A stretch of DNA of 24,000 nt from an uncultured Rhodospirillales bacterium (lineage in GTDB: Bacteria > Pseudomonadota > Alphaproteobacteria > Rhodospirillales > Casp-alpha2), in the NCBI GenBank assembly GCA_965284225.1, contig CBDIRN010000002.1, positions 205,475 through 229,474 of the forward strand, given 5' to 3'. This document shows, one piece after another, positions 1 through 20,776 of the stretch. Under the pieces are notes generated by a model that did no database searches, was not told the origin of the DNA, and saw nothing but the letters and a program-made list of their open reading frames with translations. The position numbers and the translations under genes are program-made. Position 1 is the stretch's first letter. Each line of letters opens with the position of its first letter.

Positions 1-1
1 G

Positions 2-433: not shown

Positions 434-438
434 TCAGC

Positions 439-2937: not shown

Positions 2938-3147
2938 CGGCCCTCTTAAATGATCCGGTTCTGTAGAGTGATTTACTAGCTGTGAGAGCACCTCAATATT
3001 CCGAACCGCGGCTCAAAGAACCAGATATGTTTGGTTCTCGACTAAGGGCGACTTTGGATCATCTGACTACTCTCAATATGGCGAAGAAGCTTCGTAAGCA
3101 GAATGAATTGTATGAAACTAGACACAACTTTCTAAATAATGGTGTAA

Positions 3148-4062
3148 ATGTCTATGAGGACAAGTGACAAACAGCATACGCTGATTGCGGACTTAACCAC
3201 AGAAACTCTGGCACAGTTTGTTCCAAACAGTAAGTGCTCATTACCCCATGCGGATGCCATCGAATGGTATGTCAAATTGGAAGCGGCTAACATTGATTAT
3301 GGTGTTCGGGTGCTGAAAAATTCGAGAAATTGGCAAGAACGATTTTCTTTAGCAGGGAATCCACTTGATACAGCAACTTCAATTTTTGCTAATATTGCTC
3401 GCGAAACGCATTTTCTCCATGCGAATGCCTTAAATTGGGGGTTCCCTTTATTTGAAACGCAGATAACCCGTGGCTTAGCCAATTTCTTAAATGCGGGTTA
3501 CAGCCGAGAAGTGCGACTGCAACGTTGCAAGTTAATGGCAAAAGCGTTGTCTAGTTTTGCATCTCCGATAAATGAGAGCTTTATCGCTGCGATAGAAAGT
3601 GCAGAAGATGCTTACTGTGGTTCTGAATACGGGGACAAGAGTGGTCGAGTAGACTTATTCCTTTGGTTTTTTACCGATATAGCACGTTCCAAATCTACTT
3701 GTGCCGTAGCAATGGAATGTAAAATGAGTGCAGATCTGAACGTTGGACAACTGGCTAAGTACAATCGGGTTTTCAAGAAGAAAAGACTTCACGAAGCAGG
3801 TTATGAACCAAAATATAATTCTCCTCCTTCGTCAGCCATTCAGAAGTACCTAATCGTCAAATCTGAAAGTGCAATTGGCAAGCATCACCGGCGGAATTCA
3901 AGCTGGGCAATCGTGCCATGGGCGACTCTTCTTATTGCATACGAGCGTGAAATAGAGGAACAGCTAATGTCCGGGAAAAAACTTAACGTGGGTTCGGATG
4001 ACCATGAGTTTAGGCAATATATGAAGGTGGTTTTTGAGCTGGCAGAAGGGCGTTTAGTATGA
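3148..4062 (+). CDS. PD-(D/E)xK superfamily nuclease-like protein
   Basis: 304 aa. The core motif 'GRVDLFLWF...CAVAMECKMSADLNVGQLAKY' matches D...ExK...QxxxY. This pattern is typical of the GRxDI...IENK...QL.RY group of PD-(D/E)xK families. Confidence 0.7.
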   Translation: MSMRTSDKQHTLIADLTTETLAQFVPNSKCSLPHADAIEWYVKLEAANIDYGVRVLKNSRNWQERFSLAGNPLDTATSIFANIARETHFLHANALNWGFPLFETQITRGLANFLNAGYSREVRLQRCKLMAKALSSFASPINESFIAAIESAEDAYCGSEYGDKSGRVDLFLWFFTDIARSKSTCAVAMECKMSADLNVGQLAKYNRVFKKKRLHEAGYEPKYNSPPSSAIQKYLIVKSESAIGKHHRRNSSWAIVPWATLLIAYEREIEEQLMSGKKLNVGSDDHEFRQYMKVVFELAEGRLV

Positions 4063-4682
4063 GTGGAAAATTGACAGTTACTATCCCCGAAACACTTATC
4101 AAGTATTTTGGCGATAACGCATGGAAAAGTGCTGTGAACTCCTTGTTAGATCACAGCCCGAAGAAATATCCGCCCAACCTAAAATGGGAGGATCAGATTG
4201 ATTTCCATTCGGTATATGTGGCTGCACAGGTAACACGTTTGGATTACCATAAATTTGTTTATGACTTGTGGGATAAATGCTGGGATAACTTAAGCCGGAT
4301 CAAGAGCATTTGTGGTTCAGGTCAAAAGTGGGACGACGTGAAATACCTCGCTCCTTACGATGTTTGGGATGAGGGGTTATATAGAGAGTGTTCTGTTAAA
4401 GAATCTGCAAAAAGGTATGTGCAGCTTTTTGTAGATATTGAAGAGAATTACCTCACAGCTGGTTTGTATGTCAGTGCAAATAGAGAAAAAGACCAGGTTG
4501 ATGACTCCATTAGAAAATCTGTAGAAAACGCTATTGCTAGGGAAACCGAAATTTCAAATGATTACGTTATGTGGAAGCACGCTGAAAAACCAATTGTATT
4601 TGATCCGAATAAAAGTGTGATAGAGGTTGATATTTCAGATCTGAAAACGTCCTGCGACGACGCACTAAATGCTCTTAAGTAA
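4059..4682 (+). CDS. Hypothetical protein (207 aa) translationally coupled to the upstream nuclease
   Basis: There is an ATGA start/stop overlap at 4059-4062 and a GAAGGG about 9 nt upstream. No recognisable motif. The stop is 2 nt before the 25-bp repeat at 4685. Confidence 0.6.
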   Translation: MSGKLTVTIPETLIKYFGDNAWKSAVNSLLDHSPKKYPPNLKWEDQIDFHSVYVAAQVTRLDYHKFVYDLWDKCWDNLSRIKSICGSGQKWDDVKYLAPYDVWDEGLYRECSVKESAKRYVQLFVDIEENYLTAGLYVSANREKDQVDDSIRKSVENAIARETEISNDYVMWKHAEKPIVFDPNKSVIEVDISDLKTSCDDALNALK

Positions 4683-4684
4683 GT

Positions 4685-4709
4685 TGTCTAGCAAACTAGG
4701 GGCACCTCA
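4685..4709. repeat. Left copy of a perfect 25-bp inverted repeat (TGTCTAGCAAACTAGGGGCACCTCA)
   Basis: It is the exact reverse complement of 9949..9973. It looks like a transposon end: TG...CA termini with an internal GGGGCACCTCA. Confidence 0.85.
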
Positions 4710-4851
4710 ATCCGAGGCTGCCCCTGGCCGACAAACACATCAACCTGACGCATCTTCGAGACAATCTCTTCCGGTTTGTATCGTTTCGTTGCCATCTGTG
4801 CTCCTCCGTTTCCTATCAGAACCGGTAGACCAATTCAGTGGGGGAGGATCA
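4710..4851 (-). mobile_element. IS3-family insertion-sequence remnant: left terminal IR, SD and the first ~27 codons of orfA
   Basis: On the - strand, TGATCCTCCCCCACTGAATTGGTCTAC (4851->4825) is IS3-family-like (TG start, C-run). It is followed by GGAGGAGCACAG and ATG at 4795, encoding MATKRYKPEEIVSKMRQVDVFVGQGQP. This is typical of the N-terminus of the HTH_Tnp_1 / IS3-IS911 OrfA. The similarity ends near 4715, next to the 25-bp repeat. Confidence 0.6.
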
Positions 4852-5043
4852 ACTGTCGCTGTTTGGCCTTGGGGCGATGCGGACGGCTGAGAAGTTTGGA
4901 GGGAGGGCGCATTTGTTGACAGTGGCGCTGACGGCTTGACACTTGAATGTCCAGTCTCCAAAGCGTTCACCGACCGTGGGTTCTTCAGCCGATGCAGGCC
5001 CTGTGGCTAATCCCAAAAAACTACCAACGCCAAAAGGAACCAC
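4849..5043 (-). pseudogene. Truncated 5' fragment of a secreted IalB-like (invasion-associated locus B family) gene
   Basis: A signal-peptide-like MVPFGVGSFLGLATGPASA is followed by 'ERFGDWTFKCQ...NKCAL', which recalls the GDW.v.C...C motif of IalB-family proteins. The reading frame runs straight into the IS3 terminal repeat at 4851 and stops. Local G+C is higher than in the neighbouring cargo. Confidence 0.3.
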
Positions 5044-5201: not shown

Positions 5202-7049
5202 ATGCGTCAGATACTAGGCCCAATTTCTTTTATCGCTGGCCTAGCGACTGGCGGTCTCCTCATAATAGTGGGACTCGTGGTCGTGACATTGGGTTCGGAC
5301 GTGGTAGCGGCTGATGCGTTCCCAAAGTTCCTCTATAAGTGGCAAACGCTATTCGCAGGGCTGTTCGGCATATTCGCGGGCGGTTTCGCTATCATTGCCG
5401 CCATCATCTCGGCCCGGCACGGCGAACGCTTTGCTGCTAAACAACAGAAGTTAAAGGAAGATGCACTTTGCACCATAATTAGGCAAGATACGATCCAGAC
5501 TCTACATGTGGTTTGTGAACTTGCCGTTTGGATAGATGTGCATGCTAGTAATCCAAACCACCCCATGCCCTATAAAAACTTCGTCATGGGTGAAAGCCTC
5601 GTGAATGTCTGGTCGGCTTTTCCCTTCGTGCCACCGCAAATCGCCAAGGAATTGTTCGAGTTTTCCCATGCCATGTTCGATTGTCAGATACGAACCAAGC
5701 AATTGGGAGAGCTGGACAAAATTGAACTCAGCGATCCAGCATCCAGGAGCTTCTTGAATTCCGTGGCCAGGGCCAGGTCGGCCGGGGAGGCTCTTCTTGC
5801 AGCACTCGATGCATCCCACTATGAACACGGAACATGCACCGAGCAGGTCTTGATGAAAGATAATCTCGGGTCGGGACAGAAAACAGCGTTGATCGTCTTC
5901 GCCCTCCTGGCCACTCTTAGCGCAGGGCTTTTCTTGCTGGCGGGGAACATGCCTGAAGACTGGCGTGGGCTCATGGGCACGCCGGTTTTGTATATCGTTC
6001 TGCTCTTGTTGGCGTTACATCTGTTGGTGATGGCCTTGCCGTTCCTGCTGTACGTCAGGAATCGCCCCATTCTGCTACAACGGGTCGAAGTCCTGGCGCT
6101 GCGCGAAAACGACGCCCCTATTTCGACGGGCGGATTGTTTAACGAATTCGTATCGACTTTCGTGATCGCACTTGTTGTCTCGATCATCACCCTATGCATC
6201 TATTGGGCCACCCACTGGTTTTCCGAGAACGGACATCTGATTTCTCTGACGGTGGCCATGGTGGCGCTGTTTTTGCTAAGCCTGTGGGCGAACCGTGATG
6301 AAGCCTTGATCAAAAATCTTTCTAAAACAACTCCCTTGATCGTGGTCACTGGCGGCTTGTCGTTCGGACTGTTTTTCGGTTTCAAAGAGCACGCTGGTCC
6401 TCTTGAAGTTCCCGAAATTATTGCTTGGTTGGTTCCCGCATCTTATTTGTGGCTCACCCTTCGGGAAAGGCTGAGAGGAAACAAGCAAGGAGGTGAGGCT
6501 GATGACCTGTCGCCATTTCAGCCTTTTCACCTGCTCTGGTACGTGTCCGAAATCATTCTTCGGAAAGTGCGGCGAGGGGCCACCGCCAATCAGGCATTTG
6601 CGATCCTTCTCACCCTTCTCATTTTTGTTTTGCCGGACCAAGTAGCAGCCGTAACCCCGGACGGCCTGGCTGCCATGTTTTCGGATGTCTGGAACCGGTT
6701 TGGCGAATTGTCGATAACCAAGGACCATGTCAGCTACGTGGCGCTTGCCGTCTTCGTGGCATTTTCGTGCAGCGACTTCGCATCGATCGTTCCTGATCTC
6801 GTGCCCGAAACGTGGCTCCTCCTTGGCGGCCTTTACAACGCGATCCTAAAGGCAGTTGTCGGACTGATCTTCCTGATCGCCATCGCGCCACTCTTTATTC
6901 TGCTCTTCGCTGTCGGTGATGCGTTCTTGGGGCCTGACCTCGCAATCATCGTCGGGTTCTTCACCTTCCCCTCCTGGTCGCAGCGTGTTTTTGCTCTCTT
7001 TGCCGCCGCCTTTACCCTGTCGTTTGATCATGCCGGTAGCGTAAGATAG
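5202..7049 (+). CDS. Polytopic inner-membrane protein of unknown function (615 aa)
   Basis: GAGGAG lies 8 nt upstream of ATG 5202. There are two N-terminal TM helices, a soluble insert of about 140 aa, and then roughly ten further hydrophobic helices. No family recognised. Confidence 0.7.
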   Translation: MRQILGPISFIAGLATGGLLIIVGLVVVTLGSDVVAADAFPKFLYKWQTLFAGLFGIFAGGFAIIAAIISARHGERFAAKQQKLKEDALCTIIRQDTIQTLHVVCELAVWIDVHASNPNHPMPYKNFVMGESLVNVWSAFPFVPPQIAKELFEFSHAMFDCQIRTKQLGELDKIELSDPASRSFLNSVARARSAGEALLAALDASHYEHGTCTEQVLMKDNLGSGQKTALIVFALLATLSAGLFLLAGNMPEDWRGLMGTPVLYIVLLLLALHLLVMALPFLLYVRNRPILLQRVEVLALRENDAPISTGGLFNEFVSTFVIALVVSIITLCIYWATHWFSENGHLISLTVAMVALFLLSLWANRDEALIKNLSKTTPLIVVTGGLSFGLFFGFKEHAGPLEVPEIIAWLVPASYLWLTLRERLRGNKQGGEADDLSPFQPFHLLWYVSEIILRKVRRGATANQAFAILLTLLIFVLPDQVAAVTPDGLAAMFSDVWNRFGELSITKDHVSYVALAVFVAFSCSDFASIVPDLVPETWLLLGGLYNAILKAVVGLIFLIAIAPLFILLFAVGDAFLGPDLAIIVGFFTFPSWSQRVFALFAAAFTLSFDHAGSVR

Positions 7050-7443: not shown

Positions 7444-8445
7444 TTGCCATCAAAGCATTGGGGCCTTATGAAAAAAATGAGTGTAGATGTGTTCAAAGCT
7501 TTCTTTGAAACTGTATGGAAACCCCTATCCAATTTCAGTTCTGTTATTGGCCTGATCGCAACTTTCTACTTATCTGTATTTTATGTGCCCAGCTATGTGG
7601 AGGATATTACTAAAGGTAGAGGACAGGTGATCCATGAGAGCCTCATAGATGACCTTCAGGAGATTATCTTCTATGAGCAAGAACTTACCATTAAAGATAT
7701 TGAATCACTCATTCATGGCCGAGAGCTTCAGCAAGGCGTTAGCTACGAATACAATCCCGATGAACTTCTTGTCCAAGTGCAAGAACGTTTCATAGGGAAC
7801 AAGTTTATCCCCTTAGAGAAGCGCAGTGCTTTATTGGAACGCATTAAGTCTATTCGTATCACCTACAAACCAATAAAGGAGATAGATGAAGGCCCGATTG
7901 ATTGGCCGACCATACTGAGTTTAGTCACAGCAATGTTAGGGACGATCTTTTCCTTGCTCGTGATGCTTAGCGCATCAAAGAAATTCAAACTCGATAGTGA
8001 AGTTGCAGACGATATCATCTCTGATCAAATGTACGAGAGTGACGCTCCAGAATTTATTCGAGACGGCGCACCGCAACAATACGAAGAGATGGTCATTGAA
8101 GTGCTGACTGAGCTGGATGCTTTAAAAAGGCACTCAAGCCAAGGTTATGAAAACCAGTATGACTTTATTGCTGGGAACAATCGATGTGAATATATTGGTG
8201 AAGTTAAATGGCTTAGGCGCTTGCTTGGTTTTGGAACAGTAGTACGGTTTTTGCGCACCGTCAGTCATTCAGGAAAAAACGGTATACTTGTGATTAACAC
8301 TGGGATTACTGAAAGGGCTAAAAGTGCAATACGCGAACATAATGAAATAAACAAAGACCAACATGTTCACGTTATTACAGGTAAAACTAGAGAGTTTGTG
8401 AAAAGCCGTCTGAGCAATATTTTAAAAACTGATGCTGAAGATTAA
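7444..8445 (+). CDS. Membrane-anchored Mrr-like restriction-endonuclease-fold protein
   Basis: TTG 7444 has GGAG 5 nt upstream, with an alternative ATG at 7468. There are two TM helices ('VIGLIATFYLSVFYV' and 'WPTILSLVTAMLGTIFSLLVMLSA'). The C-terminus 'YDFIAGNNRCEYIGEVKW...GILVINTGITERAKSAI...VHVITGKT' follows the Mrr catalytic-domain layout (D...E-x-K, then kgi.vT.g.ft..A). Confidence 0.7.
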   Translation: MPSKHWGLMKKMSVDVFKAFFETVWKPLSNFSSVIGLIATFYLSVFYVPSYVEDITKGRGQVIHESLIDDLQEIIFYEQELTIKDIESLIHGRELQQGVSYEYNPDELLVQVQERFIGNKFIPLEKRSALLERIKSIRITYKPIKEIDEGPIDWPTILSLVTAMLGTIFSLLVMLSASKKFKLDSEVADDIISDQMYESDAPEFIRDGAPQQYEEMVIEVLTELDALKRHSSQGYENQYDFIAGNNRCEYIGEVKWLRRLLGFGTVVRFLRTVSHSGKNGILVINTGITERAKSAIREHNEINKDQHVHVITGKTREFVKSRLSNILKTDAED

Positions 8446-8498
8446 CAGATATTCTTGATAAGCCCTGCATTAGGAACAGAAGGTCACGACACACACTC

Positions 8499-9917
8499 AT
8501 GAATAAATATGACCAAGATTATGTGGACAAATTTTTTTCTGATATCTCATCTTGGTCTAAGGCTTACACGTCTATCGCCGTAAGTTACTTAGCTTTTCGT
8601 ATAGAAGAAGGGTACGCACTAACTAAAGCTCGGATATTCCTCGACGTGTGGCCCAGAGATATAGAAAGAACTCAAATTAAATTCGATAGCCTTCAAGCAG
8701 GTGTTTTCTACTTATCTGACATAGACATATCACCCGAAGATTATATCCAATGTTTGGAGGACGGTTCCTTCTCAACTCCACATGGCAAGCTGGTATTTCT
8801 TCCAGAAGATAGTGGTGCTTATTCCGCCTATTATGACCCGTATTTAAGCGAGGGGACTCAATCAAATTATCGACTTAGCCTCCTGTCAATTAGTGGTGGG
8901 GGAGTTAACCCTCAACCACGAAATACAGAGTTGGACTGGGAGCTTAAATCAGGGGAAAAGCCGTTTGATAATGTTAATGCACTGTTGATGGAGCTTGGCA
9001 TAGGAACAGTGAGTTCAGATAGAGCAGTAGTTGAGTATGTAGCGTCCAGTTGTTTAAAGCCCCATTCCGTAGAACCGTATGGAATGGTAGTAGGCAACAA
9101 AGCATGCCCAGCACTTCTAATTCCAAATAGCTTAGAAGCAGCAAAAACAACCCTCGGTTATCAAGTATATCATGACGGTAAGGTGATAGAACGGAAACGA
9201 ATAGAAGGTTCCGATCTACGATGGGAATTCATTCGGGGTGCAAACTTGGGCAGCAAGGAAATAACTATTCCCGAAGGCGCTGTTCTACAATGCTTTGGTT
9301 CCTATGCAGGAAGCACACAATTTCAGTGGTGGATGAGTGATCCAGCAACCGTACAGAACCCATTACGCACAGTGTACAACACATTTGATCAGGGGCTTGA
9401 AGTCTTACTTGATTATCTCGCTAAGGGGCCCGGCAAGGGGAATGCCCGAGATCTCGAAACGGCAATAGCTTGGTTGCTATGGATGCTTGGATTTAATGTG
9501 GTGCACTTGGGAGCTACACCTAGGAATCAAGAGGCCCCTGATTTAGTTGCATCAACATCATTGAAACACTTCTTTGTCATAGAATGCACTACTGATTTAT
9601 TGAAAGCAGATAACAAGTTACCGAAACTTATAAGTCGTAATGAGGCTCTACGCACCAGCTTGTATACATCCGGCAACCGTAACCTTAAGACTCTGCCAGT
9701 AATAGTATCATCCAAGAGTAGGAAAGAGGTTGCTGCTGATATTGAACAAGCTGAAAAGCTAGGTGTACTGGTTATCACAAGAGATGAAATATTAAAACTG
9801 CTTGATCAAACTTTAATGCTCCCAAATGCGGAAAACATATACCTTGAAGCTGAGCTTAAGGTGAAAAAAGCAGTTGATAAGCATTCGCCGAACAAAGACT
9901 TTTTGAACCATTCGTGA
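8499..9917 (+). CDS. Hypothetical protein (472 aa) with a C-terminal PD-(D/E)xK-like domain and a novel N-terminal region
   Basis: The C-terminus 'ETAIAWLLWMLGFNVVHLG...APDLVASTSLKHFFVIECTTDLLKADNK' has a literal P-D and an E-C-T in place of ExK, with Lys residues just downstream. The roughly 300-aa N-terminal region matches nothing I recognise. The stop is 5 nt before a 38-bp Tn3-like repeat. Confidence 0.6.
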   Translation: MNKYDQDYVDKFFSDISSWSKAYTSIAVSYLAFRIEEGYALTKARIFLDVWPRDIERTQIKFDSLQAGVFYLSDIDISPEDYIQCLEDGSFSTPHGKLVFLPEDSGAYSAYYDPYLSEGTQSNYRLSLLSISGGGVNPQPRNTELDWELKSGEKPFDNVNALLMELGIGTVSSDRAVVEYVASSCLKPHSVEPYGMVVGNKACPALLIPNSLEAAKTTLGYQVYHDGKVIERKRIEGSDLRWEFIRGANLGSKEITIPEGAVLQCFGSYAGSTQFQWWMSDPATVQNPLRTVYNTFDQGLEVLLDYLAKGPGKGNARDLETAIAWLLWMLGFNVVHLGATPRNQEAPDLVASTSLKHFFVIECTTDLLKADNKLPKLISRNEALRTSLYTSGNRNLKTLPVIVSSKSRKEVAADIEQAEKLGVLVITRDEILKLLDQTLMLPNAENIYLEAELKVKKAVDKHSPNKDFLNHS

Positions 9918-9921
9918 AGAG

Positions 9922-9959
9922 CGTTTAGTGATGCGTAGATGCGATTTCTGAGGTGCCCC
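9922..9959 (-). repeat. Tn3-family-like 38-bp terminal inverted repeat (outer end at 9959, reads leftwards)
   Basis: The reverse complement reads GGGGCACCTCAGAAATCGCATCTACGCATCACTAAACG. From memory, Tn21-subgroup IRs read GGGGGCACCTCAGAAAACGG...ACGCTAAG, with an outer GGGG and an inner CTAAG. This needs alignment against ISfinder/TnCentral. It overlaps the 25-bp repeat by 11 bp. Confidence 0.4.
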
Positions 9960-9973
9960 TAGTTTGCTAGACA
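9949..9973. repeat. Right copy of the perfect 25-bp inverted repeat (TGAGGTGCCCCTAGTTTGCTAGACA)
   Basis: It is the exact reverse complement of 4685..4709. The pattern TG..TGCCCCTA......AGACA also resembles IS3-family (IS2-like) terminal repeats as I recall them. Confidence 0.85.
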
Positions 9974-10114
9974 CCTTCCACATTCATCGTGGCCGCCAGA
10001 ATTCAGAAGGCCCTCAAAGCTGCCCAGCGCCCTTTATGGGCGATATTCGTCGTATTGGCCCTAATCTTGTTTAATCTCATATATTGATCGCTAAAGAATG
10101 AATACTTCCAGACA

Positions 10115-11149
10115 ATGCCCTTGCCGCCGCTAGAATTCTTCGAAAATGCTCTAGATTACAGCCGAGTTGATCTTCTGGAGGACATCTTGGCCAATCAGGG
10201 CATGTCCGGCGCATTCACCAGGAGAACACTCGAAGCTTATAACAAGGGAAAGAAGCCTCAGAAATCAAAGGGCTTGGTGCTTGAAAAAGCCTTCGAGGGT
10301 TACGCGGAAGGTGCCAGACTCAATCATATAATTGAGGCAGTCAATGAAGCAGAAGAGGGTACCGGCCTCCTAAATGACACTTACGCAGGCCCTTGGCTTC
10401 AAATCATATCGGGATATGAAATTAGATGCGCAGAGCCCGTATTTTGGACAACAGAGGCTCGCAGGGCCCTTAGATGCGCACTTGAATTACGCGATATCGC
10501 GCAAGGTAAATCTACACGCATTCCGTCAGAAGTGATCGACGATGCAAATCTGCCAAAAACGAGGACCTACCAAGAGGTTATTAGACGGCTCCGTAAATAC
10601 GAGGCTGATCGGAATTGTTTGGATGAACAATTACTCACACCAATCTATCTAGAGACAGCCTTGTTTATAATGGCATGTCACGATTTTGAGCACGGCGATT
10701 CCAACTACGTAACACTCATAGACAAGGACGCGCCCGCTTCAAAACAAAGCCCGATGACAAAGCTCATCTTAAAAATGCGTGAAATACGTCAGATTTCAAG
10801 TTACGCGAAGATCAGCGAATTTCTCCTCCCAGATCAATCACCAGAATCCGCCCTCACAGAAATCAAAAAGTGGCGCAAGGGTAACCGGTATCCGAACTGG
10901 AAAAACGTAAAAAAGTGGCCCAGCAAATTCCCAGAGATAGAACCCTTTGCAATTTACTGGGCCGTTGGTTATGCCAGAATAATCCAAGAGATTTTCAAGA
11001 AGGCCGTCGACCTAGAAAAGGACTTGGATTGGTTCCGCGCTGATTGGATCGCCGAAAGCCGAGATGTAATCGGTTTTCACGTCCCCGACAGATATCACTC
11101 GTTACTATCTTCCAAGTCGTCAGGGCGACCGTCTTCGCCGCGAGATTGA
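10115..11149 (+). CDS. Hypothetical protein (344 aa) with two XRE-type HTH-like segments
   Basis: 'RRTLEAYNKGKKPQKSKG' and 'ISSYAKISEFL...ALTEIKKWRKGNRYPNWKNV' both resemble the recognition-helix '..is.wE.G.r.P' signature of Xre-family HTH domains. Nothing else is recognisable. Confidence 0.55.
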   Translation: MPLPPLEFFENALDYSRVDLLEDILANQGMSGAFTRRTLEAYNKGKKPQKSKGLVLEKAFEGYAEGARLNHIIEAVNEAEEGTGLLNDTYAGPWLQIISGYEIRCAEPVFWTTEARRALRCALELRDIAQGKSTRIPSEVIDDANLPKTRTYQEVIRRLRKYEADRNCLDEQLLTPIYLETALFIMACHDFEHGDSNYVTLIDKDAPASKQSPMTKLILKMREIRQISSYAKISEFLLPDQSPESALTEIKKWRKGNRYPNWKNVKKWPSKFPEIEPFAIYWAVGYARIIQEIFKKAVDLEKDLDWFRADWIAESRDVIGFHVPDRYHSLLSSKSSGRPSSPRD

Positions 11150-11232
11150 TAGTACGCATCATTGTTCGGATTAAGCTGGTCCGCATGATTGTCCAGATCA
11201 GCCTTTTCCTGTTCGGGCGTTCGTGGATCCAT
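11095..11232 (-). CDS. Small acidic protein (45 aa), absent from the ORF track
   Basis: The - strand has GGAGAA 6 nt upstream of ATG (11232). The product is MDPRTPEQEKADLDNHADQLNPNNDAYYQSRGEDGRPDDLEDSNE. The 'N.ANQLNPNN.AY..SRG' motif recurs in small conserved hypothetical proteins. It converges on the 344-aa gene and overlaps its 3' end by 55 nt. Confidence 0.4.
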   Translation of the reverse strand: MDPRTPEQEKADLDNHADQLNPNNDAYYQSRGEDGRPDDLEDSNE

Positions 11233-11950
11233 TGTCGTTCTCCTTATATCGAGTTCTGCCATCTACATGGAGCAGGGGATTCTGCCCTTGTTTGATAGAT
11301 GGCTCCTATCAACCAGTGAACGATACCCGGACCTGCCAGGACACAGACAGGAGGCAAAATTGGAAAAATGCGTAGTACATGGGTAGTAATCGGGTTCGTA
11401 ACAGATTGACCGTCTCGTAGGTCTCCCGAAACCGACCAACGCCTGAGCCGCAATATCCTCCACAAATCGCGCCGCCGGGCACGCTACAGGTGCCATAATA
11501 TTAACCCGCCAAAACCGCACCGACCATCCGCGTCAGATCTGAAAATTTTTGGGGGACGGGAGTTTTCCAGCGATCCGCCTCAGACTTTGAGTCCAGCGCT
11601 TCAGACTTTGTGTCTGTTTACACCTTTACTCGGGCGGCATTTCAATTGCAGTTAAGAAAAAATGATCGAACGGCTAAAATATTAAAAATCACAAATAACT
11701 CTCCATATCTTGATGGCAAATTTCGGCTATCATCGAATCCGCAGTCATTACTTCTATGTAAGACCGCCGGTATTAAGATCGCCGAGTCATGAGTCTGCAT
11801 GCCCTTGCACAAATAGATTTTTTGAATTTCTGGCTATATCGATAATTCGTGCAATGCTTCGAATCCTTTTCATTCACTTTTGTGATAATCTGGATTAGGT
11901 TAACCGATAAGTATTATCAGAAACTAAAATTCTATCGAGTATAGTAAAAT

Positions 11951-13762
11951 ATGCAAAGACCAATGTGGGCCGACAAAGAATCAGATGTTGATTACTTAAA
12001 CTTCTCCGAGGTTGCTGATGTTGCGGCGTCAATGATTAAGCAACCTGGGTTGTTACCGTTGTCGATTGGTATTTATGGAGGGTGGGGTGCAGGCAAATCG
12101 ACTACCTTGCGCCTAATTCATGCGAGTCTTCAGCGGGGATCGCCAAAGGATGATACGTTAGTAATCGAGTTCGACGCTTGGCTGTATCAAGATTTTGATG
12201 ACGCCCGCGCTGCTTTGATGGACGTAATTACTTCGCGTTTAATGGAAGCGTCTAAAGACCACGAAGGCTTGGCCGAGAAGGCAAAGTCGCTCATCGCGCG
12301 TGTCGATTATTTTCGAGCAGCAGGATTGCTGGCAGACGTAGGAATGTCAGCTCTAATCGGTGTTCCGCCTGGTATCTTGTCGCGGGCTGTCGATGGCGCA
12401 AAAAAAATGTGGTCAGGTGATAGTAGCGAGGGAGATATATCAGATTTTAAACAGGCTGGCGCCGATGTGATTTCAACGGGTAAGAGCTTATTAAAGCCTG
12501 AGGAAGTGACCTCGCCACCAAGAGAAATTGCCGCATTCAGAGAAGAATTTGGCAGTTTGTTAAGCGAACTAAATGTTACGCTTGTGGTGTTTATCGACAA
12601 CCTTGATAGGTGTTTGCCGAAGAAAGCGATCCAGACTTTGGAGGCTGTACGTCTTTTTCTTTTCTTGCCAAAAACAGCATTTGTCATTGCCGCCGACGAA
12701 GACATGATCCGACACGCTGTGCGTGAACACTATGCTGGGCCTGATGATCGATTGGTTACTGATTACTTAGACAAAATGGTGCAAGTTTCACTTCGCGTCC
12801 CCCGAGTTGGGGTCCAAGAGACCAAAGCGTATCTGATGCTATTATTCGCAGAGGCCGCTGGGGCGGAAGTTGAGAAACTTCAGCAACTGCGAGAAGGCCT
12901 TATTGAAATTCTTCGATCACTCTGGAAAGGCGAGCCAATTACACCGAAGATTGCTAGAGGGCTTTTAGGCGCTTCGGAGAGCAGCGATATTGCTAACGAT
13001 CTCGAAATGGCGGATCGGCTAGCTCACGTTTTGGCGACAGCACCAAATATTCAAGGCAACCCAAGAATTGTGAAAAGACTACTGAATACCGTACGCATTC
13101 GTACGGTAATTGCGCAGCAAAGGGGGATGAACCTTGATGAGGCGCTAATTGCAAAATTGGCGGTACTAGAGCGCTGTACCAACGATCCAGCCTTCAGCTC
13201 ATTCTGTCAAATGGTAGCATTATCAACGAACGGAGCTCCGCATGAGATCGCAGCAATGGAAGAAGTGGTTGATGATCCCGCAGCTTTTGAAGAAGCATGC
13301 CCTGAAGCTCTGAGCAATTATTCTAGTTTTCTACGCGAATGGTGCAAAATTCCGCCAGACTTAGCCGGAAGAGACTTGCGCCCTGCTATCTACCTTAGCC
13401 GCGATGCAGCGCCTGTGTCCTTAGCTGCTAAAAGATTATCTGCAGAAGCGACAAGTCTGTTTGAAACATTAGCTTCAGCACCAAGTCTGACATCCGCAGC
13501 GAGTAAAAACGCTGCTAAGGATGTATCGCAGGAAGATGCACCAGCGATCATGACAGCGCTGATTTCGGAACTACGGCGGATTGATAATTGGGAGAAGCGC
13601 CCGAAAGAGTTCACCGGCGCGTTACTTCTTGCAGACCAACATAGTCCGGTCCAGCAGCCTCTTTCTCAGTTTGTGGCGAGTCTGAAAATAAAGCCGGTCC
13701 CAGCATGGTTAATGCAGGTCTGTCGGCAGCGACTTTGGATGCAAAATGGGAGTAGTGCTTGA
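11951..13762 (+). CDS. qatA: QatA: KAP-family P-loop NTPase
   Basis: Walker A is 'GIYGGWGAGKST' and Walker B is 'LVVFIDNLDRCLP', the KAP hallmark (..IDdLDRc). The N-terminal 'W.DKESDVDYLNF' is typical of KAP NTPases. It is the first gene of a 4-gene overlapping operon with a QueC-like gene and a TatD gene. Confidence 0.85.
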   Translation: MQRPMWADKESDVDYLNFSEVADVAASMIKQPGLLPLSIGIYGGWGAGKSTTLRLIHASLQRGSPKDDTLVIEFDAWLYQDFDDARAALMDVITSRLMEASKDHEGLAEKAKSLIARVDYFRAAGLLADVGMSALIGVPPGILSRAVDGAKKMWSGDSSEGDISDFKQAGADVISTGKSLLKPEEVTSPPREIAAFREEFGSLLSELNVTLVVFIDNLDRCLPKKAIQTLEAVRLFLFLPKTAFVIAADEDMIRHAVREHYAGPDDRLVTDYLDKMVQVSLRVPRVGVQETKAYLMLLFAEAAGAEVEKLQQLREGLIEILRSLWKGEPITPKIARGLLGASESSDIANDLEMADRLAHVLATAPNIQGNPRIVKRLLNTVRIRTVIAQQRGMNLDEALIAKLAVLERCTNDPAFSSFCQMVALSTNGAPHEIAAMEEVVDDPAAFEEACPEALSNYSSFLREWCKIPPDLAGRDLRPAIYLSRDAAPVSLAAKRLSAEATSLFETLASAPSLTSAASKNAAKDVSQEDAPAIMTALISELRRIDNWEKRPKEFTGALLLADQHSPVQQPLSQFVASLKIKPVPAWLMQVCRQRLWMQNGSSA

Positions 13763-14519
13763 TGGGTACATCATCGTCAAAAGGGGGCTCTGGGGGTACT
13801 TCCCTTTGCTGCCACCTTGGGTGGATCAAGGGCCCGGACCGCTGCCTGAGCCAGATAAAGATCGGTTCCGTACTTTCAGACTTAAACTCGGAAAATTCGT
13901 AAGCTCAGGAGATGCGAAGGACCTTCGATCGGCAGTTGGCCATTTTGCGAGATCGTCATCTGGAGGTGCATCTGTCGCCAAGACTCGAATTTCTCCAATT
14001 GCGACCGTTGGCGGAAATCTGATTGGCCTCATATCTGATCTCCAAAGCGGCGGCGACGGGACAGCACTAGCAGGGGAGGATTTGTCCTCGTGTTTGGGTG
14101 CAGAAATTGATGTCGCAATCGAAAAAATCGTAGAAGCCCTGACACCAGACAACGGGGATGCCGACAAGATTAGTGCTGCAATGCAATCGGCACTCCTAGA
14201 AGTTTTGGAAGATGATGCATCTTTTGATCCGTTATCAATTTCGAGCGACGATTTGGTATCATTGATTTCTGCGTATTTGGTAGAAGCTATCTTCTTATGG
14301 ATAATTTCGGAGAGTGATAAATCTTTCCAAAAAGCAGATTCCGGTCCTAAAGCGAACAAGGCAGAAGCGAGTTTGAGAGAACTTGTCAAAGTTTCGGTTG
14401 AAGATGCATTAGGCGCAAAAAATTTAACAAATATAGGTGCATTAAAGCCAAACGACATTGCAGAACTTGAACGCGAAGTAACGCATGAGGTTTTCCAAGT
14501 GTGGGAGGGTTACGAGTGA
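13746..14519 (+). CDS. qatB: QatB-like protein. The 5' end is uncertain, with a possible frameshift (see finding).
   Basis: It sits between the KAP NTPase and the QueC-like gene, as in Qat operons. No known domain. The listed ATG 13746 lacks an SD. An out-of-frame ATG at 13762 has TGATG coupling and a GGGAG SD. Confidence 0.65.
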   Translation: MGVVLDGYIIVKRGLWGYFPLLPPWVDQGPGPLPEPDKDRFRTFRLKLGKFVSSGDAKDLRSAVGHFARSSSGGASVAKTRISPIATVGGNLIGLISDLQSGGDGTALAGEDLSSCLGAEIDVAIEKIVEALTPDNGDADKISAAMQSALLEVLEDDASFDPLSISSDDLVSLISAYLVEAIFLWIISESDKSFQKADSGPKANKAEASLRELVKVSVEDALGAKNLTNIGALKPNDIAELEREVTHEVFQVWEGYE

Positions 14520-15826
14520 CAACAGTGATATGTTCACATGACGAACTTAGGCTGAGTGCCTGCCCCGCCGACAGCTTGAAAGTGTTGCTCTATGGAGCCG
14601 CTTCTTCGCTTGGTTATGGTTCAATTGGAAATCGCATCCATGATGAATTCATAAAGAAGTTACCATCACCTCCTGATGCTAGAGCAATTGATTTTTTGAC
14701 AATTGCGCTCTCAGTGATTGCAGCTGATACATTTGTTCTTAGAGCGAATTCCGCAGATAGGTGGGTACGCGAAATTCATCTCATTATTGAATTGGCAAAC
14801 CCATCGCCTTGGTATGCAACAGTTTCCAATATCGAGCGAGCACTTTCGTTTTTGAGTGGTGACAAATGGAATATTGAGATTAGAGCTAATGGTTACAGTC
14901 CTGCGCCTATGCCTAAGCAGCCTGGTATTCCTGATTGCGTATGTCTTTTTTCTGGAGGTCTGGATAGTGCAGTAGGTGCGGTTGATTTGCTGAGTAAAGG
15001 AAGAAAGCCGCTATTAGTATCTCACGCATATTCAAAAGATCGACAAATCCAGCAATTGTTGCTGAACCGCTTGGGAACATTTGTACCTTATTCAGTTGGT
15101 ACAAATGTAAACGCGACAAGGGTCCAACTCGGCTCTAATCAATATATCAATGATACGTCAATGCGAGCGAGGAGTTTACTATTTCTAGCACTTGGGGCTG
15201 TTGCTGCGTCAAGCGTATCGTCTATGAATGCGGGCGCGGTTACGGAGTTGTATGTGCCGGAAAATGGCTTCATTTCTGTAAACCCACCGTTGACCAATCG
15301 TCGGCTCGGAAGCCAAAGCACGAGAACCACACATCCTAACTTTCTCCGGCAAATTCAGTTAATTTTGGATAGTGTTGGTTTACCTGTTAAACTGATTAAT
15401 CCTTATCGAGGGTTGACCAAAGGGCAGATGTTGAAGCAGTGCGCCAACCAACAGCTTCTCTCAAAAATCGCGAAATCAACAGTATCTTGTGGCAAATGGA
15501 AACGAAAAAATAAACAGTGTGGACGTTGTCTCCCTTGCCTAATTCGTCGCGCTGCTCTCCATGCAGCGAGTATGGCAGACAATACGGATAACGGATACGT
15601 CGACCTTGATCTCAAAAAAATTATGAAGAATGAGTTGCTGCGTGATGATGTGCTGGCAGTGATGATCGCCATCGACAAATATTCAGGGACTGATATGGTC
15701 CGATGGGCGATTGCCAATGGACCGTTGCCCGGTGATGTCGCCGAAAGACAGTTAAGAATTGCCGCAGTTCAGAATGGTCTAGCGGAATTAGAGGATTTTC
15801 TAAGGCACGAAGGATGCATCCCTTAA
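14501..15826 (+). CDS. qatC: QatC: QueC-like PP-loop ATPase
   Basis: The PP-loop is 'CLFSGGLDSAVGA' (SGGxDS). The C-terminal Cys cluster 'SCGKWKRKNKQCGRCLPCLIRR' matches the QueC zinc motif (CxxCxxC). The more likely start is GTG 14516, which forms a GTGA overlap with the qatB stop and has GGGAGGG 6 nt upstream. Confidence 0.85.
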   Translation: MGGLRVTTVICSHDELRLSACPADSLKVLLYGAASSLGYGSIGNRIHDEFIKKLPSPPDARAIDFLTIALSVIAADTFVLRANSADRWVREIHLIIELANPSPWYATVSNIERALSFLSGDKWNIEIRANGYSPAPMPKQPGIPDCVCLFSGGLDSAVGAVDLLSKGRKPLLVSHAYSKDRQIQQLLLNRLGTFVPYSVGTNVNATRVQLGSNQYINDTSMRARSLLFLALGAVAASSVSSMNAGAVTELYVPENGFISVNPPLTNRRLGSQSTRTTHPNFLRQIQLILDSVGLPVKLINPYRGLTKGQMLKQCANQQLLSKIAKSTVSCGKWKRKNKQCGRCLPCLIRRAALHAASMADNTDNGYVDLDLKKIMKNELLRDDVLAVMIAIDKYSGTDMVRWAIANGPLPGDVAERQLRIAAVQNGLAELEDFLRHEGCIP

Positions 15827-16557
15827 TTGATCTTCACTGCCATTTGGATTTGTATCCAGACCCATTTTCAGAAATTCGCTCCGCTATTGCTCAGAATGCG
15901 TACATTCTATCAGTGACGACAACTCCAAAGGCTTGGAGAACTACTGCTCGAATTGCTGCCGATGCGCCTCGAATTAAAACCTCTTTGGGATTCCATCCGC
16001 AGTTGGTAGGAGAGCGAGCACATGAAATCGAGCTTTTCGAGGAATTGCTGCCATCGGCTGAATATGTTGGAGAAATTGGTTTAGACGGAAGTCGAGATTT
16101 CAAAGACACATTTGATGTGCAGCTTAAGGTATTTCGAAAAATCCTACAATTGATGTCTAAGAACGGGGGACGAATTTCTTCTATTCATAGCCGTGGGGCT
16201 GCAACAGAGACGCTTGATGAAATTGAAAAAGCTCCTGGGGCAGGCACGCCCATTCTTCATTGGTTTTCGGGAAGTAAGGCCGAACTGAAACGAGCAATCG
16301 ATCTAGGCTGTTGGTTTTCCGTTGGCCCTGCGATGCTTCGAGGTAAGAAAGGAGTGGCACTTGTTAATATGATGCCTCCTGGGAGAATCCTGACAGAGAC
16401 CGATGGCCCTTTTGGTAAGAATGGAAAAGAGCCGCTCCGGCCTGCTGAAGTGGGTCTAGCATTAAAGGAATTATCTGTTTGTTGGGGATGCTCATTTGAA
16501 AGTGCAGCATCCAAGGTTGCTCAGAATCTTCGATGTATTTTGGATGGAAGAACGTAA
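15814..16557 (+). CDS. qatD: QatD: TatD-family metal-dependent hydrolase/DNase
   Basis: TatD signature blocks are present: 'LIDLHCHLD' (HxH), 'EIGLDG', 'IHSR', 'LHWFSGS' and 'ETDGPF'. It overlaps qatC by 13 nt. Confidence 0.9.
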   Translation: MHPLIDLHCHLDLYPDPFSEIRSAIAQNAYILSVTTTPKAWRTTARIAADAPRIKTSLGFHPQLVGERAHEIELFEELLPSAEYVGEIGLDGSRDFKDTFDVQLKVFRKILQLMSKNGGRISSIHSRGAATETLDEIEKAPGAGTPILHWFSGSKAELKRAIDLGCWFSVGPAMLRGKKGVALVNMMPPGRILTETDGPFGKNGKEPLRPAEVGLALKELSVCWGCSFESAASKVAQNLRCILDGRT

Positions 16558-17008: not shown

Positions 17009-20751
<3,743 letters not shown>

Positions 20752-20776
20752 AATATCATGTCCAAGCGCGCGCCCA

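What the first reader, a model, noticed from the sequence alone, without database searches (positions are those of the whole stretch)
7444..16557. Seven-gene same-strand block: two nuclease-fold genes, a double-HTH protein and QatABCD
From 7444 to 16557 every gene is on the + strand and has a nucleic-acid or nucleotide-related prediction. In order they are the TM-Mrr-like nuclease, the PD-(D/E)xK-like 472-aa protein, the 344-aa HTH-like protein, the KAP NTPase, QatB, the QueC-like enzyme and the TatD hydrolase. Only the last four correspond to a described system (Qat). The three upstream genes are unassigned. They could be accessory or sensor components of an expanded Qat-type system, or one or two independent new systems stacked next to it. 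Several features argue against a single transcription unit: gaps of 197 bp (containing the 25-bp repeat) and 801 bp (containing gene debris and an opposite-strand small ORF), and differing G+C. The co-localisation still deserves a test, because Qat has a nuclease-like effector (TatD) and no defined sensor.
Basis: inference. Interest (0 to 1): 0.75.

Follow-up and report, generated by a model that had tools for sequence, protein, structure and literature searches.

The report
Qat defence operon beside unrelated genes
The seven-gene block is not one enlarged Qat anti-phage system but a patchwork: an ordinary four-gene Qat operon sits beside three unrelated, separately acquired modules that never travel with Qat or with each other in other genomes.

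Summary
All seven ORFs exist at the stated coordinates, and 11951-16557 is a canonical qatABCD operon. The three upstream genes are not Qat accessories. ORF3 (10115-11149) belongs to a conserved element backbone. This pair recurs in 6 of 7 distinct loci without Qat; what lies downstream varies.

ORF1 (Mrr-type nuclease with two hydrophobic, probably membrane-spanning, segments) and ORF2 (472 aa, C-terminal PD-(D/E)xK-like domain) lie in a 5.2-kb segment bracketed by two 29-nt termini of an IS3-family insertion sequence. That segment is part of about 7 kb that replaces a single backbone gene. The gene's 3' remnant (9980-10087) sits in the 197-bp "gap".

No fetched locus combines any two of ORF1, ORF2 and ORF3. 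One of 37 ORF2 loci abuts Qat genes. Of 103 plasmids carrying qatC, none carries any of the three. Published work shows cloned qatABCD alone gives defence.

Verdict: a mosaic defence island with independent modules. ORF2 (more than 240 homologues, often beside type I restriction genes) and the ORF3/small-gene pair are uncharacterised families worth modest follow-up.

The parts
1..2921 (+). Left part of the conserved element backbone. Genes at 50-433, 439-1716 (425 aa; TM segments plus coiled coil; weak ZorA-like hits), 1713-2699 and 2683-2937.
   Evidence: 78.5% DNA identity and collinear with L001 4317-7238. Proteins are 79-92% identical. ZorA hits are weak: PADLOC E 5e-9, NCBIfam E 3e-5, below cut-offs.
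2922..4680 (+). Cargo segment absent from L001 and L002: a 304-aa gene (3148-4062, weak PDDEXK_4 hit) and a 207-aa gene (4059-4682) that overlap by 4 bp.
   Evidence: No counterpart in L001 or L002. Pfam PDDEXK_4 E 8e-4, below cut-off. GC 0.42.
4681..4709 (-). Solo terminus (about 29 nt) of an IS3-family insertion sequence; left arm of the inverted repeat.
   Evidence: Inverted repeat I1, 29 nt, 97% complementary. Exact 25-mer occurs twice against 0 expected. In 4 metagenome contigs the same 25-mer follows unrelated flanks and precedes a conserved sequence that I read on the other strand as a transposase C-terminus.
4707..4853 (-). 5' stub of a second IS3-family element (OrfA N-terminus MATKRYKPEEIVSKMRQVDV...), truncated at the left arm.
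   Evidence: blastn 70-85% identity to plasmid regions annotated 'IS3 family transposase'. Sequence read.
5202..7049 (+). 615-aa polytopic membrane protein of unknown family, inside the IS-bracketed segment.
   Evidence: About 8-10 hydrophobic segments. No hit in Pfam, NCBIfam, PHROGs or PADLOC. GC 0.53.
7444..8445 (+). ORF1: Mrr-type PD-(D/E)xK nuclease with two hydrophobic, probably membrane-spanning, segments. The real start is probably the ATG at 7468, giving 325 aa.
   Evidence: Mrr_cat E 0.007 (16.9 bits, cut-off 21). 13 of 24 homologues carry PF04471. Hydrophobic segments at residues 31-52 and 154-178. K255 is invariant, D240 is conserved in at least 90% of sequences, and E253 in most, with a conserved 100-residue domain between the hydrophobic segments.
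8499..9917 (+). ORF2: soluble 472-aa protein with a beta-rich N-terminal half (1-285) and an alpha/beta C-terminal domain carrying a PD...E-C-T...K motif. Candidate stand-alone nuclease.
   Evidence: 243 homologues among the 8000 candidates scored, so a lower bound. Invariant D348, E362, C363, T364 and K373. AF2 mean pLDDT 86.5 with an alpha-beta-beta-beta-alpha-beta core at 316-404. Weak Hjc and Card1_endonuc hits in 5 of 33 members each. Phage 'Restriction endonuclease' fold hit, prob 1.0, 155 columns. No TM segment.
9949..9977 (+). Solo terminus of the same IS3-family element; right arm. It ends 2 bp before the synteny breakpoint.
   Evidence: Backbone homology to L002 resumes at 9980.
9980..10087 (+). 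3' remnant of the backbone gene (309/316 aa in L002/L001) that the roughly 7-kb cargo replaced.
   Evidence: The small ORF 9989-10087 ends ...KALKAAQRPLWAIFVVLALILFNL, matching the L001 316-aa C-terminus ...RALKAAQRPLWAIFFVLVLILLNLT.
10115..11149 (+). ORF3: 344-aa all-alpha protein of a rare, unassigned family; a backbone gene of the element.
   Evidence: Three close homologues among 5.8 billion proteins and 31 remote ones in the exhaustive search. Syntenic with backbone genes in L001 and L002. No family hits.
11095..11262 (-). Small acidic protein gene (55 aa; core from MDPR about 45 aa; motif NQLNPNNDAYYQSRG), convergent with ORF3 and overlapping its 3' end by 55 bp.
   Evidence: Present beside ORF3 relatives in the window, L001, L002, L054, L055/56 and L057 at 62-87% identity, while ORF3 is 29-72% identical. 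Substitutions sit mainly at codon position 3, for example 4/6/24.
11263..11622 (.). Conserved non-coding right end of the backbone. It includes a 118-nt stretch 94% identical to L002 with a tandem 18-nt repeat (11576-11593 and 11597-11614). Homology to L001 and L002 stops at 11622.
   Evidence: (D13).
11951..13762 (+). qatA (KAP-family P-loop NTPase).
   Evidence: PADLOC QatA E 3.6e-195, full length. Pfam KAP_NTPase E 2.4e-53. NCBIfam QatA 446 bits, below the 600-bit equivalog cut-off.
13746..14519 (+). qatB, overlapping qatA by 17 nt. The N-terminus is MGVV...
   Evidence: PADLOC QatB E 1.6e-60. Translation. G2 is reported as essential in PMC13279940.
14501..15826 (+). qatC (QueC-family protein), overlapping qatB by 19 nt.
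   Evidence: NCBIfam QatC 372.5 bits against a cut-off of 280. PADLOC E 8.9e-111. Pfam QueC E 7.5e-10.
15814..16557 (+). qatD (TatD-family nuclease), overlapping qatC by 13 nt. HxH motif (HCH) at residues 8-10.
   Evidence: PADLOC QatD E 4.5e-91. Pfam TatD_DNase E 1.6e-43. Translation.
17009..19507 (-). gyrB: first core gene and right boundary of the low-GC island. recF, dnaN and dnaA follow.
   Evidence: Pfam, NCBIfam. GC rises from about 0.45 to about 0.58 at 17000.

Best explanation
The block 7444-16557 is a mosaic stretch of a horizontally acquired, low-GC island next to gyrB. It is not one system. It has four independent units.

(1) qatABCD (11951-16557) is a canonical, self-sufficient Qat operon. 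From the literature, QatC (QueC family) binds QatB and probably modifies its N-terminal glycine. QatA is a DNA-binding KAP NTPase oligomer. QatD is a TatD nuclease held in check by NTPs.

(2) ORF3 plus the small convergent gene (10115-11262) is a conserved two-gene cassette that belongs to an element backbone. In related elements this cassette lies next to variable genes that include known defence genes in one locus. I infer that Qat here occupies a variable cargo slot downstream of it. The cassette's own role is not shown. My best guess is a regulatory or maintenance pair, in which the small acidic protein and convergent transcription counteract ORF3.

(3) ORF1 is a solitary Mrr-type nuclease with two hydrophobic segments. 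I infer an N-in topology, with a roughly 100-residue conserved loop outside the membrane and the nuclease domain in the cytoplasm.

(4) ORF2 is a solitary soluble nuclease-like protein. I infer that the N-terminal beta-rich domains recognise a target and the C-terminal PD-(D/E)xK-like domain cuts DNA.

ORF1 and ORF2 arrived together with a 615-aa membrane protein gene in a 5.2-kb segment bracketed by IS3-family ends. That segment is part of about 7 kb that replaced a backbone gene.

Shown: module boundaries, lack of recurrent linkage, family assignments. Inferred: the biochemical activities and any defence role of ORF1, ORF2 and ORF3.
For: Synteny breakpoints:
- Window 1-2921 and 9980/10002-11622 are collinear with L001 and L002 at 76-94% identity.
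- Window 2922-9979 replaces one 309/316-aa gene, whose C-terminal remnant survives at 9980-10087.
- Homology ends at 11622, before Qat.

IS scars:
- 29-nt inverted termini at 4681-4709 and 9949-9977 are ends of an IS3-family element.
- A second IS3 stub lies at 4707-4853.

No recurrent linkage. Among the 65 fetched loci:
- 36 have ORF2 alone and 12 have ORF1 alone.
- 6 have ORF3 plus the small gene, and 1 has ORF3 alone.
- 1 has ORF2 plus QatC/QatD, on the opposite strand.
- None combines any two of ORF1, ORF2 and ORF3.

Other points:
- ORF2 has no recurrent neighbour; the largest neighbour cluster covers 3 of 35 loci. Its neighbours include HsdM/HsdS, HsdR, TniQ and an SMC-like ATPase.
- The closest ORF1 and ORF2 relatives (L059 at 51%, L003 at 77%) lack the other gene, and L003 DNA similarity is confined to the ORF2 coding region.
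- Reverse test: 103 plasmids carry a QatC homologue and 0 carry ORF1, ORF2 or ORF3. Annotated qat loci have unrelated upstream genes.
- ORF3 relatives lie in other contexts: after an integrase-primase-helicase core and before MmeI/UvrD/GmrSD; beside Hxs radical-SAM genes and HipAB; beside Tn7 TnsAB.
- Literature: qatABCD alone defends in E. coli and QatBC is the minimal unit (PMC13279940). 98.1% of 631 qat clusters are plain qatABCD (PMC13434339).
Against: - ORF1 and ORF2 are only 53 bp apart, on the same strand and of similar GC. Co-transcription, and a functional pairing specific to this genome, cannot be excluded.
- One ORF2 locus of 37 (L037) does abut qatC/qatD.
- The ORF3 family is rare: 7 distinct neighbourhoods were examined, so the 'cargo slot' pattern rests on few loci.
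- Promoter and terminator scans were uninformative, so transcript structure is unknown.
- The source genome could not be retrieved. The left end of the island and any integrase or att site were not seen.
- No functional data exist for ORF1-3.
Confidence: 0.85

Rival explanations
1. Expanded Qat system: ORF1, ORF2 and/or ORF3 are accessory sensor or effector components that work with QatABCD.
For: Same strand and close proximity. All have nucleic-acid-related or unknown predictions. One ORF2 homologue lies next to qatC/qatD in L037. The phage trigger of Qat is still undefined in the papers read.
Against: 0 of 103 plasmids carrying qatC carry any of the three genes. 36 of 37 ORF2 loci, 12 of 12 ORF1 loci and all 7 distinct ORF3 neighbourhoods lack Qat. 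The junctions are IS and deletion scars, and Qat lies outside the conserved backbone. In L037 the qat genes are on the opposite strand. Cloned qatABCD is sufficient for defence, and 98% of surveyed clusters are plain qatABCD.
Confidence: 0.03
2. ORF1 and ORF2 form a new two-gene defence system: a membrane-anchored nuclease or sensor plus a soluble nuclease, mobilised as a unit by IS elements.
For: 53-bp spacing, same strand, similar GC of 0.41 and 0.43. Both lie inside the IS-bracketed segment. Both have PD-(D/E)xK-type motifs.
Against: Homologues never co-occur: 0 of 37 ORF2 loci have an ORF1 relative and 0 of 12 ORF1 loci have an ORF2 relative, including the closest relatives of each. Genes downstream of ORF1 relatives (155 aa, 247 aa) are unrelated to ORF2. 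The gene upstream of the 77%-identical ORF2 in L003 is unrelated to ORF1.
Confidence: 0.1
3. ORF3 and its small partner are an element-encoded regulator that controls whatever cargo lies downstream. They would then control Qat expression here: a generic link, not a Qat-specific one.
For: The cassette is followed by variable genes in several loci: MmeI/UvrD/GmrSD in L054, HipAB and a nuclease in L055, Qat in the window. The convergent overlap suggests antisense control.
Against: No DNA-binding domain was detected in ORF3 or its relatives. In L001 and L057 core or metabolic genes follow directly. Only 7 distinct neighbourhoods are known. Two Pseudomonas plasmids have the small gene beside a protein not detectably related to ORF3.
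Confidence: 0.12

Closest known systems
QatABCD anti-phage system (Gao et al. 2020; structural and functional work in PMC13279940, PMC13376578 and PMC13434339)
   Same: 11951-16557 has the same four genes, in the same order, with overlapping reading frames. There are full-length profile matches to QatA-D. QatB starts with M-G, and QatD has an HxH motif.
   Different: About 41-47% protein identity to the nearest plasmid QatC. The QatB N-terminus is MGVV, not the consensus MGTS. QatA and QatB score below NCBIfam's equivalog cut-offs. Nothing suggests extra components.
Mrr, type IV restriction endonuclease (Pfam Mrr_cat, PF04471), for ORF1
   Same: C-terminal catalytic core with conserved D...E-x-K. 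Most homologues are recognised by PF04471, and some are annotated 'restriction endonuclease'.
   Different: No Mrr_N winged-helix DNA-binding domain. Instead there are two hydrophobic segments flanking a conserved roughly 100-residue domain of unknown family. No solved relative by sequence.
PD-(D/E)xK nucleases of the Hjc / Card1-endonuclease / restriction-endonuclease type, for ORF2
   Same: C-terminal alpha-beta-beta-beta-alpha-beta core with invariant D348 and E362. Weak Hjc and Card1_endonuc hits in family members. A phage 'restriction endonuclease' fold hit. Located beside type I R-M genes, as E. coli mrr is (the E. coli comparison is from my own knowledge).
   Different: The canonical E-x-K lysine is replaced by T364, and an invariant K373 sits on the following helix. 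A large beta-rich N-terminal half (1-285) has no convincing fold match. No Pfam, NCBIfam or PADLOC model covers the family.
IS3-family insertion sequences and decayed composite transposons
   Same: The 25-mer TGAGGTGCCCCTAGTTTGCTAGACA is the TG-initiated terminus of an IS3-family element in four metagenome contigs. An IS3 OrfA 5' stub is also present.
   Different: Only about 29 nt of each end survive, there is no transposase, and the TG ends face inward. This is a scar, not an active transposon.
Cargo hotspots of integrative mobile elements (for example P4-like satellites, from my own knowledge)
   Same: A conserved backbone gene pair (ORF3 plus the small gene) is flanked by variable genes, including defence genes in L054. 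Integrases are present in L054 and L055.
   Different: No integrase or att site was seen in the window. The backbone genes match no known satellite or ICE family. In L001 and L002 the element abuts a dif-like site that is absent from the window.

Membership tests
QatABCD | QatA: KAP-family P-loop NTPase of about 600 aa | tested here: met
   Pfam KAP_NTPase E 2.4e-53. PADLOC QatA E 3.6e-195 over positions 1-592 of 593. NCBIfam QatA 446 bits, below the 600-bit equivalog cut-off.
QatABCD | QatB with a disordered N-terminal tail beginning M-G (G2 essential; consensus MGTS) | tested here: met
   PADLOC QatB E 1.6e-60. The sequence starts MGVVLDG..., so G2 is present, but the rest of the MGTS motif is not conserved.
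QatABCD | QatC: QueC-family protein with N- and C-terminal extensions (about 440 aa) | tested here: met
   NCBIfam QatC 372.5 bits against a cut-off of 280. PADLOC E 8.9e-111. Pfam QueC E 7.5e-10. A C-terminal Cys cluster is present.
QatABCD | QatD: TatD-family nuclease with an HxH motif | tested here: met
   PADLOC QatD E 4.5e-91. Pfam TatD_DNase E 1.6e-43. HCH at residues 8-10.
QatABCD | Compact A-B-C-D operon order | tested here: met
   Overlaps of 17, 19 and 13 nt. Same layout as annotated loci L062 and L063.
QatABCD | Confers phage resistance | not testable with these tools
   Needs plaque assays.
Expanded Qat system (ORF1-3 as Qat components) | Conserved gene neighbourhood with qat operons across genomes | tested here: not met
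   1 of 37 ORF2 loci, 0 of 12 ORF1 loci and 0 of 7 distinct ORF3 neighbourhoods have Qat nearby. 0 of 103 plasmids carrying qatC carry any of the three.
Mrr-type (type IV) restriction endonuclease, for ORF1 | Mrr_cat catalytic domain with D...(E/Q)xK | tested here: met
   ORF1 itself scores 16.9 bits, below the 21-bit cut-off. 13 of 24 homologues carry PF04471. K255 is invariant, D240 is conserved in at least 90% of sequences, and E253 in most.
Mrr-type (type IV) restriction endonuclease, for ORF1 | N-terminal Mrr_N winged-helix DNA-binding domain | tested here: not met
   No such Pfam hit. The N-terminal 180 residues consist of two hydrophobic segments and an unassigned conserved domain.
PD-(D/E)xK nuclease superfamily, for ORF2 | alpha-beta-beta-beta-alpha-beta core with acidic residues and a lysine in the (P)D...(D/E)xK arrangement | tested here: inconclusive
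Helix-turn-helix regulator, for ORF3 | Recognisable HTH domain | tested here: not met
   No Pfam, NCBIfam or PADLOC hit for ORF3 or 8 relatives. The best is HTH_3 at E 0.13 in one remote relative. The AF2 model is unreliable (pLDDT 54).
IS3-family insertion sequence (the repeat arms) | TG...CA terminal inverted repeats adjoining transposase genes | tested here: met
   The 25-mer is the outermost sequence of IS copies in L050-L053, next to a conserved sequence that I read as a transposase 3' end. In the window only the termini and one OrfA stub remain.
Zorya (the backbone genes at 439-2699; considered only as context for ORF3) | ZorA (MotA-like) plus ZorB (MotB/OmpA-like) pair | tested here: inconclusive
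   The 425-aa protein gives ZorA hits at E 5e-9 (PADLOC) and 3e-5 (NCBIfam, 22.5 bits against a cut-off of 190). The window's 328-aa protein has no ZorB or OmpA hit; only the Rhizobium counterpart does (E 8e-6).

The most novel reading that the evidence does not exclude
Two uncharacterised families here could be new anti-phage or mobile-element functions.

(a) The ORF2 family has more than 240 homologues across Proteobacteria, Verrucomicrobia and Planctomycetes. It is always solitary and repeatedly sits beside type I R-M genes or in transposon cargo. It could be a new single-gene nuclease defence system with a novel beta-rich recognition module.

(b) The ORF3 plus small acidic protein pair, arranged convergently, could be a conserved 'gatekeeper' cassette. 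It would mark, and perhaps regulate, a variable cargo slot in a family of integrative elements, with Qat as the cargo here.
Probability: 0.3. Interest if true: 0.5.

Novelty: new member of a known kind. Interest (0 to 1): 0.3.

Why it matters
The result removes a tempting but wrong lead. Qat does not acquire a sensor or extra nucleases here, so people studying Qat need not include these neighbours.

It also shows how a "same-strand block" in a defence island can be assembled by IS-mediated replacement inside a conserved element, with the junction scars still readable.

There are two by-products. The first is a widespread, unannotated nuclease-like family (ORF2) with defence-island-type neighbours, which is a reasonable candidate for experimental screening. 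The second is a conserved two-gene cassette (ORF3 plus an overlooked 45-55-aa protein) that could help delimit cargo hotspots in a poorly known family of elements.

Tried and rejected
- Sigma-70 promoter and terminator scans across 6900-17100 were no better than shuffles (15 found against 16 expected; 2 against 9.5). They are uninformative about transcripts.
- No tRNA or Rfam family in the window, so no tRNA-type integration site.
- ORF3 structure prediction failed (pLDDT 54), so no fold search was attempted.
- ORF1 and ORF2 as paralogues: hhalign found nothing.
- Genes downstream of ORF1 relatives as cryptic ORF2 relatives: nothing.
- The 398-aa partner of the small gene on Pseudomonas plasmids as a remote ORF3: nothing.
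- The 615-aa gene as a transposase for the inverted repeat: rejected, because it is a polytopic membrane protein.
- The 29-nt repeat as a Tn3-type IR or an invertible-segment site (ideas from my own knowledge): rejected once the repeat proved to be an IS3-family terminus.
- A dif-like site in the window, as in L001 and L002: none found.
- Retrieving the source contig or organism: exact look-ups failed or returned no names.
- ORF1-3 as phage genes: only 1, 1 and 0 hits in 2.9 million viral contigs.

Full report
**Setting.** The window holds a low-GC island (about 0.40-0.53) from position 1 to about 17000. It abuts core genes gyrB, recF, dnaN and dnaA on the minus strand at GC about 0.58. All large ORFs from 50 to 16557 are on the + strand, so the same-strand run is a property of the whole island, not of 7444-16557 alone.

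**Checking the observation.**
- The seven ORFs are at the stated coordinates, and the two gaps (197 and 801 bp) are correct.
- 11951-16557 is a canonical qatABCD operon. It has full-length PADLOC matches to QatA, QatB, QatC and QatD (E 4e-195, 2e-60, 9e-111, 5e-91) and Pfam KAP_NTPase, QueC and TatD_DNase hits. NCBIfam QatC scores above its curated cut-off. The reading frames overlap by 17, 19 and 13 nt.
- QatB starts M-G, which is the essential glycine of PMC13279940, and QatD has an N-terminal HCH motif.
- ORF1 is Mrr-like. It scores just below the Pfam cut-off, but 13 of its 24 homologues carry PF04471. The family alignment shows a conserved D240...E253-x-K255 motif and two hydrophobic segments. 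Its real start is probably the ATG at 7468, because the deposited protein is 325 aa.
- ORF2 has no family assignment. A confident AlphaFold model (pLDDT 86.5) shows a beta-rich N-terminal half and a C-terminal alpha-beta-beta-beta-alpha-beta domain. That domain carries invariant D348, E362-C-T364 and K373.
- Weak, mutually consistent evidence makes a PD-(D/E)xK-type nuclease domain likely but not proven for ORF2. The evidence is Hjc and Card1-endonuclease hits in 5 of 33 members each, one phage 'restriction endonuclease' fold match, and a non-significant PDB alignment that places the PD...ExT motif on a matching motif in chain 6qvv_A.
- ORF3 as a 'double HTH' protein is not supported. Neither it nor eight remote relatives give any domain hit, and its structure model is unreliable.

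**ORF3 belongs to a different unit.**
- ORF3 has only three close homologues among 5.8 billion proteins.
- Two of them lie on contigs (L001, a Rhodospirillales MAG, and L002). There they are syntenic not with Qat or ORF1/ORF2 but with homologues of window genes 50-2937, at 72-92% protein identity.
- At the DNA level, window 1-2921 and 9980/10002-11622 are collinear with those loci at 76-94% identity. Window 2922-9979 replaces a single 309/316-aa gene.
- That gene's C-terminus survives as the small ORF at 9989-10087 (...KALKAAQRPLWAIF...).
- Homology stops at 11622, about 330 bp before qatA.
- In L001 the next genes are core genes, including a housekeeping TatD only 31% identical to QatD, and there is no Qat.

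**The overlooked partner of ORF3.**
- The minus-strand ORF at 11095-11262 overlaps the 3' end of ORF3 by 55 bp.
- It is present beside ORF3 relatives in the window, L001, L002, L054, L055/56 and L057. It is 62-87% identical across these loci, although ORF3 itself falls to 29-30%.
- Its substitutions are concentrated at third codon positions (for example 4/6/24 and 0/1/9 by codon position), so it is a real coding gene.
- An exhaustive HMMER search found 31 remote ORF3 relatives. Their contexts differ:
  - L054: after an integrase, a Toprim primase and an AAA_25 helicase, and before MmeI, DEAD, T5orf172, UvrD and GmrSD genes.
  - L055/56: between Hxs radical-SAM genes and a HipAB pair, near an integrase.
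  - L058: beside Tn7 TnsA and TnsB.
- The common pattern is a conserved cassette next to variable genes, which include known defence genes in L054. Qat fills that position in the window, and nothing fills it in L001.

**ORF1 and ORF2 are IS-associated cargo.**
- A 29-nt inverted repeat (4681-4709 and 9949-9977, 97% complementary, none expected by chance) brackets a 5.2-kb segment. The segment holds a 615-aa polytopic membrane protein gene, ORF1 and ORF2.
- In four metagenome contigs the same 25-mer follows unrelated flanking DNA and precedes a conserved sequence that I read, on the other strand, as a transposase C-terminus. It is therefore the TG terminus of an IS3-family element.
- A second IS3 5' stub lies at 4707-4853.
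- The right arm ends 2 bp before backbone homology resumes.
- The '197-bp gap' between ORF2 and ORF3 is therefore a recombination scar, consisting of an IS end plus a gene remnant. It is not an intergenic spacer of an operon.

**Linkage tests.**
- A scan of species-representative genomes found 35 ORF2 loci across Proteobacteria, Verrucomicrobia and Planctomycetes.
- None has an ORF1 or ORF3 relative within 10 kb. One (L037) has qatC and qatD next door, on the opposite strand.
- ORF2 has no recurrent neighbour at all. Abutting genes include HsdM/HsdS, HsdR, TniQ and an SMC-like ATPase.
- ORF1 relatives in twelve loci, including the closest at 51% identity, lack ORF2, ORF3 and Qat.
- The 77%-identical ORF2 relative (L003) is preceded by an unrelated membrane protein, and DNA similarity is confined to the ORF2 coding region.
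- Over all 65 fetched loci, no locus combines any two of ORF1, ORF2 and ORF3.
- In the reverse direction, 103 plasmids carry a QatC homologue and none carries ORF1, ORF2 or ORF3. Two annotated qat loci show compact qatABCD operons with unrelated upstream genes.

**Literature.**
- A cloned qatABCD operon defends E. coli, and QatBC is sufficient against some phages. QatA binds DNA as an oligomer (PMC13279940).
- QatB's N-terminal glycine is essential (same paper).
- QatD is a TatD nuclease inhibited by NTPs, and 98.1% of 631 qat clusters are plain qatABCD. The reported variants are truncations or duplications, not additions (PMC13434339).

**Most likely mechanism.**
- The modules act independently.
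- Qat works as described in the literature.
- ORF1 (inferred): an N-in membrane protein whose conserved loop faces outward and whose Mrr-type domain cuts DNA in the cytoplasm.
- ORF2 (inferred): a soluble, stand-alone endonuclease whose beta-rich N-terminal domains select the target.
- ORF3 and the small protein (inferred, low confidence): an element-borne regulatory or maintenance pair using convergent transcription.

**Verdict.** The block is an ordinary mosaic defence island. The moderately interesting residue is the uncharacterised ORF2 family and the ORF3/small-gene cassette.

Noticed in passing
window 439-2937; L001 1676-7016; L049 (Rhizobium pRL11) 6709-11864: A conserved module recurs from a Rhodospirillales MAG to Rhizobium plasmids at 30-38% identity. 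It consists of a thermonuclease, a 492-aa protein, a 254-aa protein, a 425-aa protein (TM segments plus coiled coil; weak ZorA hits) and a fifth TM protein. The fifth protein is OmpA/ZorB-like in Rhizobium but not in the window. It may be a distant Zorya-like system.
   Followed up: partly
window 3148-4682: A 304-aa gene (weak PDDEXK_4 hit, E 8e-4) and a 207-aa gene overlap by 4 bp, at GC 0.42. They are absent from L001 and L002. This is another unassigned two-gene unit inside the replaced region.
   Followed up: no
window 5202-7049: A 615-aa protein with about 8-10 hydrophobic segments matches no family in four libraries. Its GC (0.53) is higher than that of its neighbours.
   Followed up: no
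window 22176-23640 (minus strand): dnaA is split by an in-frame stop (FNALVG*GRQIV) and a frameshift. This suggests sequencing or assembly errors in the source genome, or a pseudogene. Either way, ORF boundaries elsewhere in the window should be read with caution.
   Followed up: partly
L001 9840-9870 and L002 2898-2925; window 11622 onward: In L001 and L002 the element backbone ends about 40 nt before AGTCGCATAATGTATATTATGGAAAAT. This closely resembles a dif/Xer recombination site (comparison from my own knowledge) and hints that the element uses Xer recombination. The window has no such site, and its sequence diverges at 11622.
   Followed up: partly
window 11505-11622: The backbone's terminal 118 nt are 94% identical to L002, more conserved than the genes. 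They contain a tandem repeat, CGCCTCAGACTTTGAGTC and CGCTTCAGACTTTGTGTC. This could be a protein-binding site or a small RNA. There are too few sequences to test covariation.
   Followed up: no
window 7265-7314; L003 2391-2432 and 7902-7934: A roughly 30-nt core (TGGGTCAGAAAAG.T.CTCATGGGCA) upstream of ORF1 recurs twice in L003, flanking the segment that carries its ORF2 homologue. On the minus strand it encodes a gene start, 'MSTFSDP'. Its meaning is unknown.
   Followed up: partly
window 4681-4709 and 9949-9977: Both surviving IS3 termini are about 29 nt long, and their TG ends face inward. The bodies of both IS copies would therefore have lain outside the bracketed segment, and both are gone. 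How two such symmetrical solo ends arose is unexplained.
   Followed up: partly
L060 7010-8380 and L061 7001-8406 (Pseudomonas megaplasmids): The small NPNNDAY-motif gene also occurs convergent with a 398-aa hypothetical protein that is not detectably related to ORF3. The small protein may pair with more than one partner family.
   Followed up: partly
window 1-17000 versus 17000-24000: Island genes (+ strand) are oriented opposite to the dnaA-dnaN-recF-gyrB core genes (minus strand). GC skew changes sign at about 17000.
   Followed up: no
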